DNA from: Escherichia coli
GTDB lineage: Bacteria > Pseudomonadota > Gammaproteobacteria > Enterobacterales > Enterobacteriaceae
Strand: one strand, 5' to 3'
Assembly (NCBI GenBank): GCA_029351405.1
Contig: GCA_029351405.1_4841.1
DNA: 64,000 nucleotides
Positions 30,662 to 59,088 of this stretch are shown piece after piece. Numbering within the stretch: position 1 is the stretch's first letter; every line of letters begins with the position of its first letter. The notes beneath the pieces were generated by a model, which ran no database searches, had not been told where the DNA came from, and saw nothing but the letters and a program-made list of their open reading frames with translations. The position numbers and the translations under genes are program-made.

Positions 30662-30683
30662 GGCGGGGTATGATTACCCCGCC
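30662..30683 (-). repeat. GC-rich leader stem-loop (ggcggggta-tgat-taccccgcc), family member
   Basis: 9-bp stem; related copies at 31223, 43148 and 31960; loop is the reverse complement of the 31223 copy. Confidence 0.5.
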
Positions 30684-35777: not shown

Positions 35778-35796
35778 ACCCCGCACATGGCGGGGT
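35778..35796 (-). terminator. rho-independent terminator
   Basis: aaccccgc / gcggggtt stem followed by UUUCUUUUGG on the minus strand. Confidence 0.5.
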
Positions 35797-40549: not shown

Positions 40550-41014
40550 TTATTCGCTTTTGGCCTTTGTAGGCCGGATAATGTATTTTGGGACCAGCTT
40601 CCATTCAGGAACCTGATCGTGTTTAACCACTTTAATGCGTGACATATCAGCGGCTTCGGTGACCTGCTCAGGATGAATGACCTTCACCATGTTCCACTGC
40701 TCCAGCAGCTTGATGATTCGGTTCATCCTCAGGACATCTTCGCGGTTAAATCCGTTGTAATGCCCGTCCAGCATAAATAGATGCTTAAAGTGGACGATAT
40801 AATACTTACCACACTTATGAAGAATATGGCAAGTCTGATACAGAGTATTCGGCTCTTGGCGCGTGTTTACCCCAATTCGACTCAGTGTTTCCTTGATCCC
40901 CAGGAATATACCTGGCCGATCTTGGTTCAATTGAACTTCAACCATACAATCAACGATGCTGGCCTCATCGTTGACTGCTGAAATATTCAATATGTCTAGC
41001 GTATTACGCGCCAT
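40550..41014 (-). CDS. regA: translational repressor RegA
   Basis: Core aligns with T4 RegA (GIKETLSRIG ... LYQTCHILHKCGKYYIVHFK ... EWKLVPKYII); T4 synteny after 44/62; an alternative start at 40945 is possible. Confidence 0.85.
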   Translation of the reverse strand: MARNTLDILNISAVNDEASIVDCMVEVQLNQDRPGIFLGIKETLSRIGVNTRQEPNTLYQTCHILHKCGKYYIVHFKHLFMLDGHYNGFNREDVLRMNRIIKLLEQWNMVKVIHPEQVTEAADMSRIKVVKHDQVPEWKLVPKYIIRPTKAKSE

Positions 41015-41042
41015 GACTCATTCCCCTTTACAATAGTTTGAA

Positions 41043-41465
41043 CTACTTAGCCTTGCGCGGTTTCGCTTTGGCGTTCAGCTCAGTGCGTCTCATCTTCTCG
41101 CGTATCTCGGCCAGGACTTCCTTCGGCAAGAAACGGACGTACTCCGATGCCTTCTCCATGCTGATGTAGAAGTACTCTGAGAGTAACTTCACGTCAGGAT
41201 CAATCGGACCTTTCTTAGACCATTTGTCGTAGCGTTTCCGAGCCGGAATGGTGTAAAAGGCATATGACCATTGCATCCATGGAGTGATAGCATGTAGCTT
41301 ATTCATCTGTTGCGCAGCCACTAGAGTGTCTTTGCTCTGAGCTAAACCACGCCGCGTCATAAACGGGTCGAATCCTTTCAACACTTCTGGGTCATCAGAC
41401 CGCAAAAGGTTTTCTTTGCTGCTGTTCAGAGCAGCCAGGTAATCGAACAATCCAAGGGCGGCCAT
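41043..41465 (-). CDS. gp62: clamp loader small subunit, T4 gp62-like
   Basis: ARKRYDKWSK region aligns with T4 gp62 RGKRYGKWAK; ATG at 41465 just after the gp44 stop. Confidence 0.7.
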   Translation of the reverse strand: MAALGLFDYLAALNSSKENLLRSDDPEVLKGFDPFMTRRGLAQSKDTLVAAQQMNKLHAITPWMQWSYAFYTIPARKRYDKWSKKGPIDPDVKLLSEYFYISMEKASEYVRFLPKEVLAEIREKMRRTELNAKAKPRKAK

Positions 41466-41469
41466 AATA

Positions 41470-42459
41470 TCACTTCCACTTGATGTTGAGCATGACATTG
41501 GTCAGGAAAAACACAGCATGCAACCAGACATCGCCGACTTGGCGGTGTTCAATCTGAGACTGACCACATACGCACACCAGATCAGGGATAGACTCATTCT
41601 GAACCAACATTTGCTTCTCTTTATCCTGTGGCACACAGAACTGGAAGAAGCGGGAATAGAAGTCTTCAGTGATATAGTTCTGGTTGTCGGTCACCCACTG
41701 CTTCATCCCAGCCCAGTCATTATCCTTCAACATATTCACCAACATGCCCATATCGGCCGATTTTAACACAGCCAGTGCACGTTCGTCGATCTTGCCGTAA
41801 GTGGTGACGTTATCCTGTAGAACACCCATGATGCGGCGGTTATCAGGGAAATGGCGCTTGACAATAGCAGCCAACACAGGAGGGTCATACTCAACACCTT
41901 CGCTGCGAAGGATTTCAGCACAGCGGCGCATGAACTGAAGTTTGACCTCATCAGCCTCAGTCTCATTCCAGATAAAGTCGATTTCACGGCAACGAGAGCG
42001 CAGAGGTTCGTTCACACGTTGCTTGGCGTTGGTGGTCAGGATGAATGAACAGTTCTTGGAGACCTTCTCCACAATACCCTTCAGCGACTCCTGCGCCGCC
42101 ATAGACAGACGCTCTACTTCGTCGAGGATAACGACTTTGCGACCACCGAATACACTCACACCAGTAGAGTACTGAATCACGCGGTCACGGATAACGTCGA
42201 TACTGTTGTCCAGGGATGCGTTGATCATCAGTGGTTGCTTACAACCGATCTCGTTACACACAGCCAGGGCGGAGGTAGTCTTGCCAGTACCAGGCTGAGG
42301 GGAGTAGAACAGCATAGACGGGATGTTACCGTTGCCGCTGGTGATGTAGCCATGGATTTTAGCGCGGACGTCTTGAGGGATGATAATCTCGTCCAGGTTG
42401 TCAGGGCGGAAACGGTTCTCCCAGGCGTACTGGTCTTTTACAATCGTGATATTAGACAT
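41470..42459 (-). CDS. gp44: clamp loader large subunit, T4 gp44-like (AAA+ RFC family)
   Basis: 329 aa; Walker A SPQPGTGKTT; SRC-like motif; aligns with T4 gp44. Confidence 0.9.
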   Translation of the reverse strand: MSNITIVKDQYAWENRFRPDNLDEIIIPQDVRAKIHGYITSGNGNIPSMLFYSPQPGTGKTTSALAVCNEIGCKQPLMINASLDNSIDVIRDRVIQYSTGVSVFGGRKVVILDEVERLSMAAQESLKGIVEKVSKNCSFILTTNAKQRVNEPLRSRCREIDFIWNETEADEVKLQFMRRCAEILRSEGVEYDPPVLAAIVKRHFPDNRRIMGVLQDNVTTYGKIDERALAVLKSADMGMLVNMLKDNDWAGMKQWVTDNQNYITEDFYSRFFQFCVPQDKEKQMLVQNESIPDLVCVCGQSQIEHRQVGDVWLHAVFFLTNVMLNIKWK

Positions 42460-43115
42460 TATGTATTTCCATGATATAGTTTACAGAACAGAACCCAAGC
42501 GTCGTCATCATACGGGTTCCAGCCCTCTTTGAATTTGTTTAACATACTCGTTGCGGTGTTCTCTTTAATAGAGAACAAACGGGCAATTCTATGGCACCCA
42601 TCACCAGTAGAAACCCAGTGATCATACACTACCCCAGCCTTTAACCACATCGGTCTGGTGTTGTGTAGCAGCGCAGCCCCGGTGTCCCAGGGTTTTATTC
42701 CTGCGGCGGGGTGGCTTTTACCAGTTCTTCCGTGCATGGGATGAAGATTCCCAGACTTGCCCTTCAACCAACTCGAGACACCAACTCGGTGATGTTTAGG
42801 TCCCGCTGACCTACCGTTGGCGATACCACAACCCCGTGGCTGAAATGATTTGTTTAAACATTTTGGGTGATCAATGTTCTCACTAATCAACTGCTGCTCT
42901 CTCCAATATGCTTCTTCTGGGGAGTCAAACAGTTCTACGAATTCTACATCAAAGAAATCAGAACCTTTCTTAGATATGATTTCCTTGACTGTTTGTGAAG
43001 AAGTGAAATATGAAGTGAACAATTGTAAAGGATGTGCACCCAATTTCGTTCTAGAACCAAAATAGAAAGAACCATCCTTCCCTAACAAATGATATACAAA
43101 CGGTTGGTTCCTCAT
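42459..43115 (-). CDS. GIY-YIG homing endonuclease (seg-like) with NUMOD3-type repeats
   Basis: VYHLL ... FYFGSR GIY-YIG motifs, 10-aa spacing; C-terminal KGKSGNLHPMHGRTGKSHP repeats; inserted between gp45 and gp44; start at 43115 or 43139. Confidence 0.7.
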   Translation of the reverse strand: MRNQPFVYHLLGKDGSFYFGSRTKLGAHPLQLFTSYFTSSQTVKEIISKKGSDFFDVEFVELFDSPEEAYWREQQLISENIDHPKCLNKSFQPRGCGIANGRSAGPKHHRVGVSSWLKGKSGNLHPMHGRTGKSHPAAGIKPWDTGAALLHNTRPMWLKAGVVYDHWVSTGDGCHRIARLFSIKENTATSMLNKFKEGWNPYDDDAWVLFCKLYHGNT

Positions 43116-43147
43116 TTCAGCCTCGTGTAGAAGAATCATTTCAAATA

Positions 43148-43166
43148 GGCGGGGAACTCCCCCGCC
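43148..43166 (-). repeat. GC-rich leader stem-loop (ggcgggg-aactc-ccccgcc), family member
   Basis: 7-bp stem followed by TATTTGAAATG, as in the 30662 and 31223 copies. Confidence 0.4.
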
Positions 43167-43196
43167 CACACATTATAGCATCAGGCTGGAGATTGA

Positions 43197-43865
43197 TTAC
43201 TCAATCTGTGCGCCGACGAAGTAATTGATCGTCGCGTCGGATGATTGGAAGTTCACCATCTGTAGATCAGCACATGCACGCAGAGTGTAGTTGCCTTCGA
43301 TCATTTTCAGGTTGGCAACATCCAGCGGCATTACGAAGTCCGGCAGCGCGGTTTCGCCCAGCTCAACAGTGTAATTGTTGGAGTTGTCCAGGGTAGTGGT
43401 GGTTGCAACCAGGCGTGTTTTGCCACCCTGAGCAACCAGACGCACAGTCTTATGTCCTAGGGTAGAGCAGGCGCGGGTCAGTTCTTTCATCTTCTCTGGA
43501 GTGATGATCGCTTCAAAATCGACAGACGGCAGTTCAATGGTGTCAGCCGGAACAACAGTGAGTTCTTTAGCAGAACGCCAGAATTGCAGCTGAGAGCTTT
43601 CGCCTTTCAACAGGATGTAGTCCTGATGGAATTCGGCTTTGGCACCTTTGAAGGAAGGTAGGCGCTGGATGGCCAGAAGTTTGGTCAGGTCCAGAATCGG
43701 GAACTCAAACGGGAAGTCTTCTTCGATCTGCGCCACGGCGATCACAGTAGAAGAATCATTAATACTGCGCAGCATCTTGCCCGGTGTCAGAACGATAGAT
43801 GGGTTGATGGTCTCAAAGTTGGCCAGCAACTGAAGTGTACGTTCAGAGAGAGTGATCTCTTGCAT
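43197..43865 (-). CDS. gp45: sliding clamp, T4 gp45-like
   Basis: 222 aa; N-terminal region aligns with T4 gp45; SD GAGGA. Confidence 0.9.
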   Translation of the reverse strand: MQEITLSERTLQLLANFETINPSIVLTPGKMLRSINDSSTVIAVAQIEEDFPFEFPILDLTKLLAIQRLPSFKGAKAEFHQDYILLKGESSQLQFWRSAKELTVVPADTIELPSVDFEAIITPEKMKELTRACSTLGHKTVRLVAQGGKTRLVATTTTLDNSNNYTVELGETALPDFVMPLDVANLKMIEGNYTLRACADLQMVNFQSSDATINYFVGAQIE

Positions 43866-44207
43866 TTGTATGTATCCTCAAAATATAGTGGGGGTTCAAG
43901 TCATGTTTGACGCAATCTAGTATCGCTGTGTTTTGCTTATAGAACAAGTGGCAAATTGCGCTACGCGTTATTAATAAATGCCTTCGGCATTTATGGACTT
44001 TATTAAAGATAATAACCTTTATTAATCCTATTCGCTTCGCTCATAAAACAAATACTCGTTGTTCGCTAACGCTCACAACTCGTATAATACCACGCCGTTG
44101 TTCAACAAGAAAGCAGTTTTTATTCAACAGCAAAAATAATTTATTTGGTCTAAACATGCACGCGAAATAATATGTATGTCATGTTAACCAACACACGAGA
44201 GTAATAT

Positions 44208-44552
44208 ATGAAACAGTTCGTAGGATTATACGCAGTTGGGTGTAGTAAGCCAGACGCCAACACCCCAGTTTATCTGACACAGCTGGCGTCAGACAAGAAC
44301 TTACCATCGGAACCGCGATTTGTCCCCCTTGGCTTGATGACAGGCCTGAAAGTTGGTCTGTATGTCGGCGTTGTGACGTTTGAAAACGGCATCGAAGCGA
44401 AGGTTCTGCCATTCAAATTGGGTAGTGAACAAATGCTGAAGGATACGATCAGTGAACACCTGAACTCACAATGTCTGGCTTCTCTGGATAAATTGTTCGG
44501 CGTAGTATCTGATGAAGGCGAGGCCACCCCCGCCTATGTGAATCAAGATTAA
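44208..44552 (+). CDS. hypothetical protein (plus strand)
   Basis: 114-aa ORF after a 342-bp AT-rich intergenic region; SD GAGAG. Confidence 0.5.
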   Translation: MKQFVGLYAVGCSKPDANTPVYLTQLASDKNLPSEPRFVPLGLMTGLKVGLYVGVVTFENGIEAKVLPFKLGSEQMLKDTISEHLNSQCLASLDKLFGVVSDEGEATPAYVNQD

Positions 44553-52404: not shown

Positions 52405-52427
52405 AAACCCCGCCGAAGCGGGGTTTT
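52405..52427 (-). terminator. rho-independent terminator after gp23 (ccccgc-cgaa-gcgggg + U-tract)
   Basis: 6-bp GC stem with flanking A/U extension and UUUUU; the same 22-mer occurs after gp18. Confidence 0.7.
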
Positions 52428-58570: not shown

Positions 58571-58597
58571 AAAACTAAAACCCCGCCTCAGCGGGGT
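58571..58597 (-). terminator. rho-independent terminator
   Basis: ccccgc-ctca-gcgggg hairpin followed by UUUUAGUUUU on the minus strand. Confidence 0.55.
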
Positions 58598-59065: not shown

Positions 59066-59088
59066 AAAACCCCGCCGAAGCGGGGTTT
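59066..59088 (-). terminator. rho-independent terminator after gp18 (same hairpin as after gp23)
   Basis: ccccgc-cgaa-gcgggg followed by UUUUAAAUU on the minus strand. Confidence 0.7.

What the first reader, a model, noticed from the sequence alone, without database searches (positions are those of the whole stretch)
42459..43166. GIY-YIG homing endonuclease gene inserted between sliding clamp and clamp loader genes
T4 has gene 45 adjacent to 44. Here a 218-226-aa ORF with GIY-YIG motifs (VYHLL ... FYFGSR) and NUMOD3-like repeats lies between them, preceded by a member of the GC stem-loop family. Free-standing seg-like endonucleases typically cleave the same locus in a related phage lacking the insertion.
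Basis: partly seen in the sequence, partly recalled or inferred. Interest (0 to 1): 0.45.

Follow-up and report, generated by a model that had tools for sequence, protein, structure and literature searches.

The report
Homing endonuclease gene at clamp-loader start
A selfish, mobile nuclease gene of a well-known type (a SegE-like GIY-YIG homing endonuclease) sits exactly at the start codon of the clamp-loader gene of this Ackermannviridae phage; it is an ordinary member of its kind, but related genomes point to where it probably cuts.

Summary
A 218-aa ORF on the minus strand (42459-43115) lies between the sliding clamp gene gp45 (43197-43865) and the clamp loader gene gp44 (41470-42459) of an Ackermannviridae phage, 98% identical to Escherichia phage YX22.

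It falls below Pfam's GIY-YIG cut-offs. Profile comparison with T4 SegE, an AlphaFold model whose best structural match is I-TevI, and conserved Y8, Y18, G20, R22, E73 and N88 still place it among SegE-like GIY-YIG endonucleases. It has a C-terminal helix-turn-helix domain.

- **Distribution:** it is present in 16 of 273 phage records that carry this locus, always at the same nucleotide.
- **Horizontal transfer:** it is far less diverged between subfamilies than its flanks (dS 0.20 against 1.4-1.6).
- **Selection:** dN/dS is 0.09-0.18.
- **Insertion:** the 656-bp insert follows gp44's native ribosome-binding site and ATG. The gene uses these, and gp44 restarts at a TAATG overlap.
- **Hairpin:** the GC hairpin upstream is native and also present in empty sites.
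- **Decay:** Dickeya phage LIMEstone1 keeps only the last 45 nt of the gene.
- **Likely target:** one flank position, gp44 nt 42, separates carriers (G) from non-carriers (A). It lies in a short converted patch, nt 36-54, which is the likely target.

NUMOD3 is not detectable. This is a new member of a known kind.

The parts
42459..43115 (-). Homing endonuclease gene: 218 codons plus the TAA stop at 42459-42461.
   Evidence: ORF. The same 657-nt CDS is annotated in YX22, allotria, SNUABM02, CAU_YEP3 and SP-9-14. It is intact in all 15 copies examined. dN/dS is 0.09-0.18.
42457..43112 (-). The 656-bp insertion relative to empty sites. The junction is ambiguous by 4 nt because AATG is present at both ends.
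   Evidence: Alignment of occupied and empty junctions (alignment A1) and the junction printout for 32 loci.
42831..43115 (-). N-terminal SegE-like GIY-YIG catalytic domain (aa 1-95), with Y8, Y18, G20, R22, Y36, E73 and N88.
42684..42830 (-). Linker (aa 96-144), low-confidence and extended, with two degenerate G-x-x-x-H-P-x-x-G repeats. No NUMOD3 hit.
   Evidence: pLDDT 50-73; no Pfam hit at E<=10; relatives carry NUMOD3 here.
42462..42683 (-). C-terminal helical, helix-turn-helix-like DNA-binding domain (aa 145-218). It is found independently in other phage endonucleases.
43113..43124 (-). Native gp44 translation start (GAGG CTGAA ATG), now used by the endonuclease gene.
   Evidence: The identical sequence directly precedes gp44 in the empty sites of A221, AV101, Ag3 and others.
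42457..42470 (-). New gp44 start region supplied by the 3' end of the endonuclease gene: GGAA (42467-42470), 7 nt, then the TAATG stop/start overlap (42457-42461).
   Evidence: Sequence. The Mansal record annotates an RBS here. The same piece is the only sequence in front of gp44 in LIMEstone1.
42406..42424 (-). Candidate recognition, cleavage or immunity patch in gp44 (nt 36-54). Nt 42 is coordinate 42418: G in carriers, A in non-carriers.
   Evidence: It is the only one of 1659 flank columns with disjoint alleles. Seven of the 10 SNPs between allotria and its nearest gene-free relative fall at nt 36-51.
43148..43166 (-). GC-rich hairpin of the native gp45-gp44 spacer. It is context, not part of the mobile element.
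   Evidence: It is present in empty sites and conserved with stem covariation across genera.
43197..43865 (-). gp45 sliding clamp (upstream flank).
   Evidence: PHROG 223, 1.1e-64.
41470..42459 (-). gp44 clamp-loader ATPase (downstream flank and probable target gene).
   Evidence: PHROG 168, 1.5e-104; Pfam AAA and Gp44_lid.

Best explanation
The ORF is a free-standing homing endonuclease gene of the SegE-like branch of the GIY-YIG superfamily. It has three parts: an N-terminal catalytic domain, a flexible linker and a C-terminal helix-turn-helix DNA-binding domain.

**Shown.** It is a 656-bp insertion placed exactly after the native ribosome-binding site and ATG of the clamp-loader gene gp44. 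It is therefore translated from gp44's own initiation signals on the gp45-gp44-gp62 message. gp44 now starts at a TAATG stop/start overlap behind a weak GGAA supplied by the endonuclease gene's 3' end. The element is sporadic, has moved between Ackermannviridae subfamilies, is under purifying selection, and has decayed to a 45-nt stub in LIMEstone1.

**Inferred.** In a mixed infection the enzyme cuts the gene-free gp45/gp44 locus of a related phage. The break is repaired from the carrier genome, which copies the gene together with the first ~55-65 nt of gp44. The most likely target is within gp44 nt ~36-60, which would lie unusually close to the insertion point for a free-standing enzyme. Carriers would be protected there by substitutions, above all the synonymous GAA to GAG change at nt 42.
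For: **Family**
- PHROG 314 'homing endonuclease', 2e-17.
- 32 of 42 homologues hit Pfam SegE_GIY-YIG.
- hhalign of the family profile against T4 SegE gives 97.2% probability, E 3.9e-11.
- AlphaFold pLDDT is 83.9 with a beta-beta-alpha-beta-alpha N-domain.
- Y8, Y18, G20, R22, E73 and N88 are conserved.
- SegE is an experimentally active endonuclease (PMC2988022, Table 1).

**Mobility**
- 16 of 273 records are occupied. About 150 Kuttervirus records with flanks 95-99% identical to allotria's are empty.
- The insertion point is identical in Aglimvirinae and Cvivirinae, each with the recipient genus's own spacer upstream.
- Window against allotria: dS is 0.195 for the gene, 1.63 for gp44 and 1.42 for gp45. 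Window against SNUABM02: 0.056, against 0.92 and 0.51.
- dN/dS is 0.09-0.18, and all copies are intact.
- LIMEstone1 carries a remnant.

**Target**
- Allotria differs from its nearest gene-free relative at only 10 of 1659 flank positions, and 7 of these are at gp44 nt 36-51.
- SNUABM02 has CAU_YEP3-like flanks but the window-type gene plus gp44 nt 1-54.
- Both exchanges end between nt ~54 and 66.
- Nt 42 is the only flank column with disjoint alleles: G in 15 carriers, A in about 30 non-carriers.
Against: - No biochemical evidence exists for this protein.
- It does not reach Pfam's curated cut-offs for either GIY-YIG model.
- The conserved arginine (R22) sits two residues after the YIG glycine, not eight as for R27 of I-TevI, and its equivalence was not shown.
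- Nt 42 is only 42 bp from the gene, so its perfect association could be plain linkage.
- In Kuttervirus carriers, gp44 nt 9-30, between the gene and the converted patch, are recipient-type. A single continuous repair tract from a break at nt 40-60 does not predict this.
- LIMEstone1, which once carried the gene, has A at nt 42.
Confidence: 0.85

Rival explanations
1. Same enzyme, different target. It recognises the sequence spanning the insertion point itself (the gp44 ribosome-binding site and start region), as intron-encoded enzymes do. The insertion alone would then protect carriers, and the nt 36-54 patch and G42 would be hitchhiking co-converted markers from the original donor.
For: The sequence around the insertion point (GAGGCTGNAATGTCYAAYATCAC) is highly conserved in all lineages, and the insert splits it. 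I-TevI binds at the insertion site and cuts 23-25 nt away (PMC2988022). Co-conversion alone can link a site 42 bp away.
Against: Markers closer to the gene (gp44 nt 9-30) have been uncoupled from it in Kuttervirus carriers, while nt 36-51 has not. G42 persists in at least five different flank backgrounds. Two independent exchanges share a downstream boundary at nt ~54-66.
Confidence: 0.3
2. The protein is a domesticated GIY-YIG nuclease that serves the phage and no longer promotes its own spread, for example by excluding competitors, degrading host DNA or countering defence systems.
For: dN/dS of 0.09-0.18 shows selection on the protein. The GIY-YIG fold also matches T4 EndoII and a restriction enzyme. 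T4 SegB has been reported to aid immune evasion (PMC13096335 abstract).
Against: It is absent from over 90% of relatives, including near-identical genomes. It has been exchanged recently between subfamilies together with a short flank patch. It was lost in LIMEstone1. This is the pattern of a selfish element, not of a core function.
Confidence: 0.08
3. The gene is an old, vertically inherited gene that was lost many times, not a recently mobile one. It may be catalytically dead.
For: The CAU_YEP3 allele is as diverged from the window allele as its flanks are (dS 1.08 against 1.06 for gp44). Loss by deletion is documented in LIMEstone1.
Against: Between the window and the Kuttervirus or SNUABM02 copies, the gene's dS is 7-16 times lower than that of gp44 and gp45. 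Empty sites are clean, with the native start region and no scars. The catalytic residues are intact.
Confidence: 0.05

Closest known systems
T4 SegE, a free-standing GIY-YIG homing endonuclease (Pfam PF19835, SegE_GIY-YIG)
   Same: The catalytic-domain subfamily is the same: hhalign 97.2% over 83 columns, with the shared pattern VY...Y-x-G...Y-[FL]-x-S...E...N. Both are free-standing genes in a T4-like replication and repair gene cluster, and both sit directly upstream of the gene they presumably target. SegE lies upstream of uvsW and targets uvsW (PMC2988022).
   Different: Pairwise identity is only about 22%. The C-terminal DNA-binding part differs. The location and presumed target differ (gp44 rather than uvsW). 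According to PMC2988022, SegE has its own upstream promoter, whereas this gene begins at gp44's own start codon.
I-TevI, the intron-encoded GIY-YIG endonuclease of the T4 td intron
   Different: This gene is not in an intron: there is no Rfam hit and the flanking genes are intact. The sequence profile aligns only over the GIY...YIG motifs. There is no zinc finger, and the arginine position differs.
Paralogous free-standing GIY-YIG genes of Ackermannviridae, such as F-LimVI of Dickeya phage LIMEstone1 and the genes next to RNase H and uvsY in Kuttervirus
   Same: They share 34-40% identity over nearly the full length, including the C-terminal domain. They come from the same phage family, which is known to carry many such genes: 14 in LIMEstone1 (PMC3296691).
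   Different: They occupy different insertion sites and so presumably have different targets. The gp45/gp44 copy is not described in that paper, and LIMEstone1 retains only its 45-nt stub.
mobE and other T-even free-standing endonuclease genes with stop/start overlaps or embedded signals for the downstream gene
   Same: The gene overlaps its neighbour in a UAAUG arrangement that suggests translational coupling. Expression signals for an essential downstream gene lie inside the endonuclease gene, which favours its retention (PMC2988022).
   Different: mobE is an HNH enzyme and overlaps the upstream gene. Here the overlap is with the downstream essential gene, and the endonuclease gene has also taken over that gene's original ribosome-binding site and ATG.

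Membership tests
GIY-YIG nuclease superfamily | GIY motif tyrosine in strand 1 | tested here: met
   Y8 (VYH) aligns with Y6 of I-TevI. Conserved in 41/42.
GIY-YIG nuclease superfamily | YIG motif tyrosine and glycine in strand 2 | tested here: met
   Y18 and G20 (FYFG) align with Y17 and G19 of I-TevI. Each is conserved in 41/42.
GIY-YIG nuclease superfamily | Conserved arginine after the YIG motif (R27 in I-TevI) | tested here: inconclusive
   R22 is conserved (36 R, 4 K, 1 H of 42), but it lies 2 residues after the glycine rather than 8. T4 SegE has K-H there. Spatial equivalence could not be checked because no model coordinates were available.
GIY-YIG nuclease superfamily | Catalytic glutamate (E75 in I-TevI) and asparagine (N90) | tested here: met
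   E73 and N88 are invariant, 42/42. E73 lies in the helix after strand 3. The PDB entry 1mk0 carries the E75A change, which confirms the numbering. Equivalence is by position in the fold and by the SegE alignment, not by a residue-level superposition.
GIY-YIG nuclease superfamily | Three-stranded sheet with flanking helices (beta-beta-alpha-beta-alpha fold) | tested here: met
GIY-YIG nuclease superfamily | Score above the Pfam gathering threshold (PF01541, 22.6 bits) | tested here: not met
   14.3 bits for the whole protein and 17.3 bits for the N-domain alone.
SegE-like GIY-YIG subfamily (PF19835) | Profile match to SegE and to the family model | tested here: inconclusive
   The query alone scores 18-20.7 bits against a cut-off of 25. 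However, 32 of 42 homologues hit the model at E<=0.01, and the family profile matches T4 SegE at 97.2%, E 3.9e-11.
NUMOD3-containing endonucleases | NUMOD3 motif (PF07460) in the linker | tested here: not met
   There is no hit in residues 91-151 at E<=10. 26 of 42 relatives do carry it.
Free-standing homing endonuclease gene (functional class) | Sporadic presence at one conserved locus among close relatives | tested here: met
   16 of 273 records are occupied. Empty sites occur in genomes with flanks 97-99% identical to those of carriers.
Free-standing homing endonuclease gene (functional class) | Horizontal movement with co-conversion of flanking sequence | tested here: met
   The gene's dS is 7-16 times lower than that of its flanks. 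Short donor-type patches occur in gp44 nt 1-54 or 36-51.
Free-standing homing endonuclease gene (functional class) | Site-specific double-strand cleavage of the gene-free allele and super-Mendelian inheritance | not testable with these tools
   This needs in vitro cleavage assays and phage crosses.
Intron-encoded homing endonuclease | Gene lies inside a self-splicing intron that interrupts a host gene | tested here: not met
   No Rfam family matches 41000-44500 at E<=1. gp44 and gp45 are complete, uninterrupted ORFs.

The most novel reading that the evidence does not exclude
The element has made itself part of the expression machinery of an essential replication gene. By inserting exactly at the gp44 start codon it takes over gp44's ribosome-binding site and ATG, and any RegA operator there. 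gp44 then depends on the last ~15-45 nt of the endonuclease gene: a GGAA, a TAATG restart, and possibly a promoter. LIMEstone1 shows the end state. The nuclease is deleted, but its 45-nt tail is kept as the only sequence in front of gp44. The enzyme would also cut only ~40-60 bp from its insertion point, which is intron-endonuclease-like geometry rather than the hundreds to thousands of bp reported for T4 free-standing enzymes.
Probability: 0.4. Interest if true: 0.5.

Novelty: new member of a known kind. Interest (0 to 1): 0.3.

Why it matters
Free-standing GIY-YIG homing endonuclease genes are well known in T4-like phages, and several database records already label this one 'homing endonuclease'. 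The class assignment is therefore not news.

What is useful is the natural experiment in the relatives:
- Occupied, empty and decayed versions of one site are all available.
- Two independent cross-lineage transfers have mapped boundaries.
- A single synonymous nucleotide tracks the gene perfectly.

Together these give a specific, cheap hypothesis for the recognition site of an uncharacterised SegE-like enzyme. They also illustrate how such a gene can tie itself to an essential gene's start signals. For annotation, the ORF is still labelled 'hypothetical protein' in most of the records that carry it and can be named.

Tried and rejected
- **Word-indexed protein search:** found only two near-identical proteins. 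The full HMMER scan was needed to reach the family.
- **Sequence search of the PDB:** the single protein gave only a spurious 19-residue match. The family profile gave a weak 1zg2 GIY-YIG hit, E 0.095. Fold comparison was needed.
- **hhalign of the family profile against I-TevI:** aligned only 22 columns, so the equivalence of E73 to E75 and N88 to N90 rests on the SegE alignment and the fold.
- **NCBIfam:** no hit.
- **Pfam on the linker and the C-terminal domain separately:** no NUMOD3, and only a non-significant HTH_SB hit.
- **Paralogues in the window:** tblastn found none.
- **Promoter and terminator scan:** no promoter specific to the gene. The hairpin is not called a terminator by that rule. 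One promoter-like hit at 42453 is on the wrong strand and within chance expectation.
- **Rfam:** nothing, so the intron idea was rejected.
- **IMG/VR and metagenome scans for more junctions:** these mostly returned genomes already in GenBank. Only one extra occupied contig (L013/L048) and two metagenome contigs were found, so the census rests mainly on the phage collection.
- **A RegA operator in the captured start region:** considered, but I could not test it and make no claim.
Full report
**What is there**

The finding's coordinates contain a minus-strand ORF at 42459-43169. Its functional start is the ATG at 43115, which gives 218 aa. This ATG is preceded by GAGG at a 5-nt spacing, and it is the start annotated in most of the related records examined (PC3 is annotated from the 226-aa ATG). 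The in-frame ATG at 43139 (226 aa) lies in native spacer DNA and is replaced by ACG in Kuttervirus.

All neighbours are on the same strand:
- gp45 sliding clamp, 43197-43865 (PHROG 223, 1e-64)
- gp44 clamp loader, 41470-42459 (PHROG 168, 1.5e-104)
- gp62, 41043-41498
- regA, 40550-41014

This is the T4 order 45-44-62-regA. In T4, genes 45 and 44 are separated by 50 nt.

The window is an Ackermannviridae (Aglimvirinae) phage. Over this locus it is 98.3% identical to Escherichia phage YX22.

**What the protein is**

Against Pfam the protein falls below the curated cut-offs: SegE_GIY-YIG 18-20.7 bits against 25, and GIY-YIG 14.3-17.3 bits against 22.6. NCBIfam gives nothing. PHROG 314, 'homing endonuclease', matches at 2e-17 over residues 9-226 of the 236-aa ORF.

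A full HMMER scan of 1.84 billion representative proteins finds 782 relatives at E<=1e-3. The N-terminal part (about residues 1-100) and the C-terminal part (about 110-215) are hit independently, so the protein is modular.

In a 42-sequence alignment, 32 members hit SegE_GIY-YIG and 26 hit NUMOD3. Column counts:

| Residue | Count (of 42) |
|---|---|
| Y8 | 41 |
| Y18 | 41 |
| G20 | 41 |
| R22 | 36 R, 4 K |
| Y36 | 42 |
| E73 | 42 |
| N88 | 42 |

The alignment profile matches T4 SegE at 97.2% probability, E 3.9e-11, over 83 columns (SegE taken from NC_000866). Against I-TevI it aligns only the GIY...YIG stretch: Y8 with Y6, Y18 with Y17 and G20 with G19. I recalled the I-TevI sequence from memory and verified it against PDB entries 1mk0, 1ln0 and 1i3j.

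An AlphaFold model built on the alignment has mean pLDDT 83.9. It shows:
- a beta-beta-alpha-beta-alpha N-domain, residues 1-95
- a low-confidence linker, residues 96-144
- a confident helical C-domain, residues 145-215

SegE is listed as an experimentally active endonuclease that targets uvsW (PMC2988022).

Two weak points remain. The conserved arginine is two residues after the YIG glycine, not eight as in I-TevI. NUMOD3 cannot be detected in this protein's linker even at E<=10. The linker has only two degenerate G-x-x-x-H-P-x-x-G repeats.

No Rfam family matches the region, so the gene is free-standing and not intron-encoded.

**Anatomy of the insertion**

I aligned occupied and empty sites and printed the junctions of 32 loci. 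In gene-free genomes (A221, AV101, Ag3, RPN242 and others), gp44's ATG is directly preceded by ...GGCGGGGGCGTTCCCCGCC TATTTGAAATGATTCTTCTACAC GAGG CTGAA ATG. In carriers the same upstream sequence and ATG open the endonuclease ORF. After 656 bp, the sequence ...CATGGAAATACATA ATG runs into gp44. The junction is ambiguous by 4 nt (AATG).

Three things follow:
It is present in empty sites and conserved in position across genera, with a different stem sequence in Klebsiella and Serratia relatives. It is not part of the element.
- The insert carries no promoter or ribosome-binding site of its own. It uses gp44's.
- gp44 now starts at a TAATG stop/start overlap, behind a weak GGAA 7 nt upstream. 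This suggests translational coupling. It resembles the arrangements described for T4 mobE, and the embedded downstream signals described for segG, segA and segE (PMC2988022).

**Evidence that it is mobile**

In the 50,697-record phage collection, 273 records carry the locus. Only 16 of them (14 distinct phages) have the gene at 80% amino-acid identity or more, and always at this site. Weaker hits (below 60% identity) are paralogues at other sites, for example next to RNase H or uvsY, or F-LimVI of LIMEstone1. LIMEstone1 was reported to carry 14 endonuclease genes (PMC3296691).

About 150 Kuttervirus records with flanks 95-99% identical to allotria's are empty.

The insertion point is the same nucleotide in Aglimvirinae and in Kuttervirus (Cvivirinae). 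In each case the spacer upstream is that of the recipient genus.

Synonymous divergence:

| Comparison | Gene dS | gp44 dS | gp45 dS |
|---|---|---|---|
| Window vs allotria | 0.195 | 1.63 | 1.42 |
| Window vs SNUABM02 | 0.056 | 0.92 | 0.51 |

The CAU_YEP3 allele is old: its dS of 1.08 equals that of its gp44.

dN/dS of the gene is 0.09-0.18, and all 15 copies examined are intact at 218 codons. GC content dips to 0.39-0.42 over the gene's 5' half, against 0.50-0.53 in the flanks.

Decay is also visible. Dickeya phage LIMEstone1 (L012, L034, L054) and a metagenome contig (L052) have a 104-nt spacer in which the native ribosome-binding site is gone. The 45 nt in front of gp44 are identical to the 3' end of the CAU_YEP3 allele. 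The deletion lies between two GAAATGA / TAATGA repeats. The near-identical match lengths of two other Dickeya records (Coodle, RC-2014) suggest they share this arrangement, but I did not read their sequences. The LIMEstone1 authors annotated a putative middle promoter inside this stub.

**Where it probably cuts (inference)**

Among 1659 aligned flank positions (gp44 plus gp45) in 11 carriers and 21 non-carriers, exactly one column has disjoint alleles. It is gp44 nt 42: G (GAG) in carriers and A (GAA) in non-carriers. Four more carriers and about ten more distinct non-carriers, from further genera, fit the same rule.

Allotria differs from its nearest gene-free relative (L020) at only 10 flank positions. 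Seven of them are at gp44 nt 36-51, where allotria carries the window-type sequence. This changes gp44 residues K16 and Y17 to R and F.

SNUABM02 has CAU_YEP3-like flanks but the window-type gene plus gp44 nt 1-54.

Both exchanges end between nt ~54 and 66 downstream, and within 3-12 nt of the gene's ATG upstream.

The simplest reading is a break in gp44 nt ~36-60 of the gene-free allele. Repair would copy everything from there through the gene. Carriers would be protected by the patch, with G42 as the key change. That would be much closer to the insertion point than the hundreds to thousands of bp reported for T4 free-standing enzymes (PMC2988022), and more like I-TevI.

Caveats:
- Nt 42 is tightly linked to the gene in any case.
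- Kuttervirus carriers keep recipient-type bases at nt 9-30, between the gene and the patch. This needs patchy heteroduplex repair or later recombination to explain.
- LIMEstone1 has A42.

The rival that the enzyme recognises the start region split by the insert is not excluded. I give it about 0.3.

**Verdict**

The ORF is a SegE-like GIY-YIG free-standing homing endonuclease gene, a new member of a known kind. It is already labelled 'homing endonuclease' in a few records and 'hypothetical protein' in most.

The added value is in three points:
- the exact anatomy, with capture of gp44's start signals
- the documented gain, exchange and decay of the element across Ackermannviridae
- a specific, testable target-site hypothesis

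Interest is modest.

Noticed in passing
L054:1762-1806 (LIMEstone1; also L012, L034, L052): Dickeya phage LIMEstone1 and a metagenome contig carry only the last 45 nt of this endonuclease gene in front of gp44. The native ribosome-binding site has been deleted between two short repeats. The LIMEstone1 record annotates a putative middle promoter inside the stub.
   Followed up: yes
window 43148-43166; also 30662-30683, 35778-35796, 52407-52424, 58580-58597, 59069-59086: The window has a small family of GC-rich hairpins with a CCCCGC/GCGGGG core. The one in the gp45-gp44 spacer is conserved in position in all lineages, including gene-free ones. In Klebsiella and Serratia relatives its stem sequence differs (GCAGGGGC...GCCCCTGC). 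It is always followed by a T-rich run, so it is probably a partial terminator or an mRNA-stability element.
   Followed up: partly
L025 (S115) and L059 (rabagast), gene 3' end and gp44 nt 18-30: These Kuttervirus copies are mosaics. The 3' end of the gene (GGGAATTCATA, C-terminus HGNS) is CAU_YEP3-type, and gp44 nt 18-30 is Aglimvirinae-type. This indicates further recombination between alleles.
   Followed up: partly
gp44 nt 9-30 in allotria, SilasIsHot, KE31, Mansal, UTK0004 (L003, L024, L026, L027, L058): The conversion is discontinuous. Recipient-type bases lie between the inserted gene and the donor-type patch at nt 36-51. A single continuous repair tract does not explain this.
   Followed up: partly
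window 42409-42414 (gp44 codons 16-17): The patch that travels with the gene changes the gp44 protein in Kuttervirus carriers, from K-Y to R-F. Both versions also occur among gene-free Aglimvirinae.
   Followed up: partly
window 42462-42683 (aa 145-218): The confident helical C-terminal domain has no Pfam family. It recurs, sometimes in several copies, in other phage endonuclease-like proteins (for example P0007 and P0010) and in PHROGs 25551, 26163 and 7504.
   Followed up: partly
L002:1051-1227 (Escherichia phage A221): regA is annotated as only 177 nt in A221, against 465 nt in relatives. This may be a frameshift or a sequencing error in that record.
   Followed up: no
window 43137-43139: An ATG in the native spacer is in frame with the downstream start. 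It is in frame with gp44 in gene-free Aglimvirinae and with the endonuclease gene here. It has no ribosome-binding site and is ACG in Kuttervirus, so it is probably not used. It explains the 226-aa alternative, and the PC3 record annotates it.
   Followed up: yes
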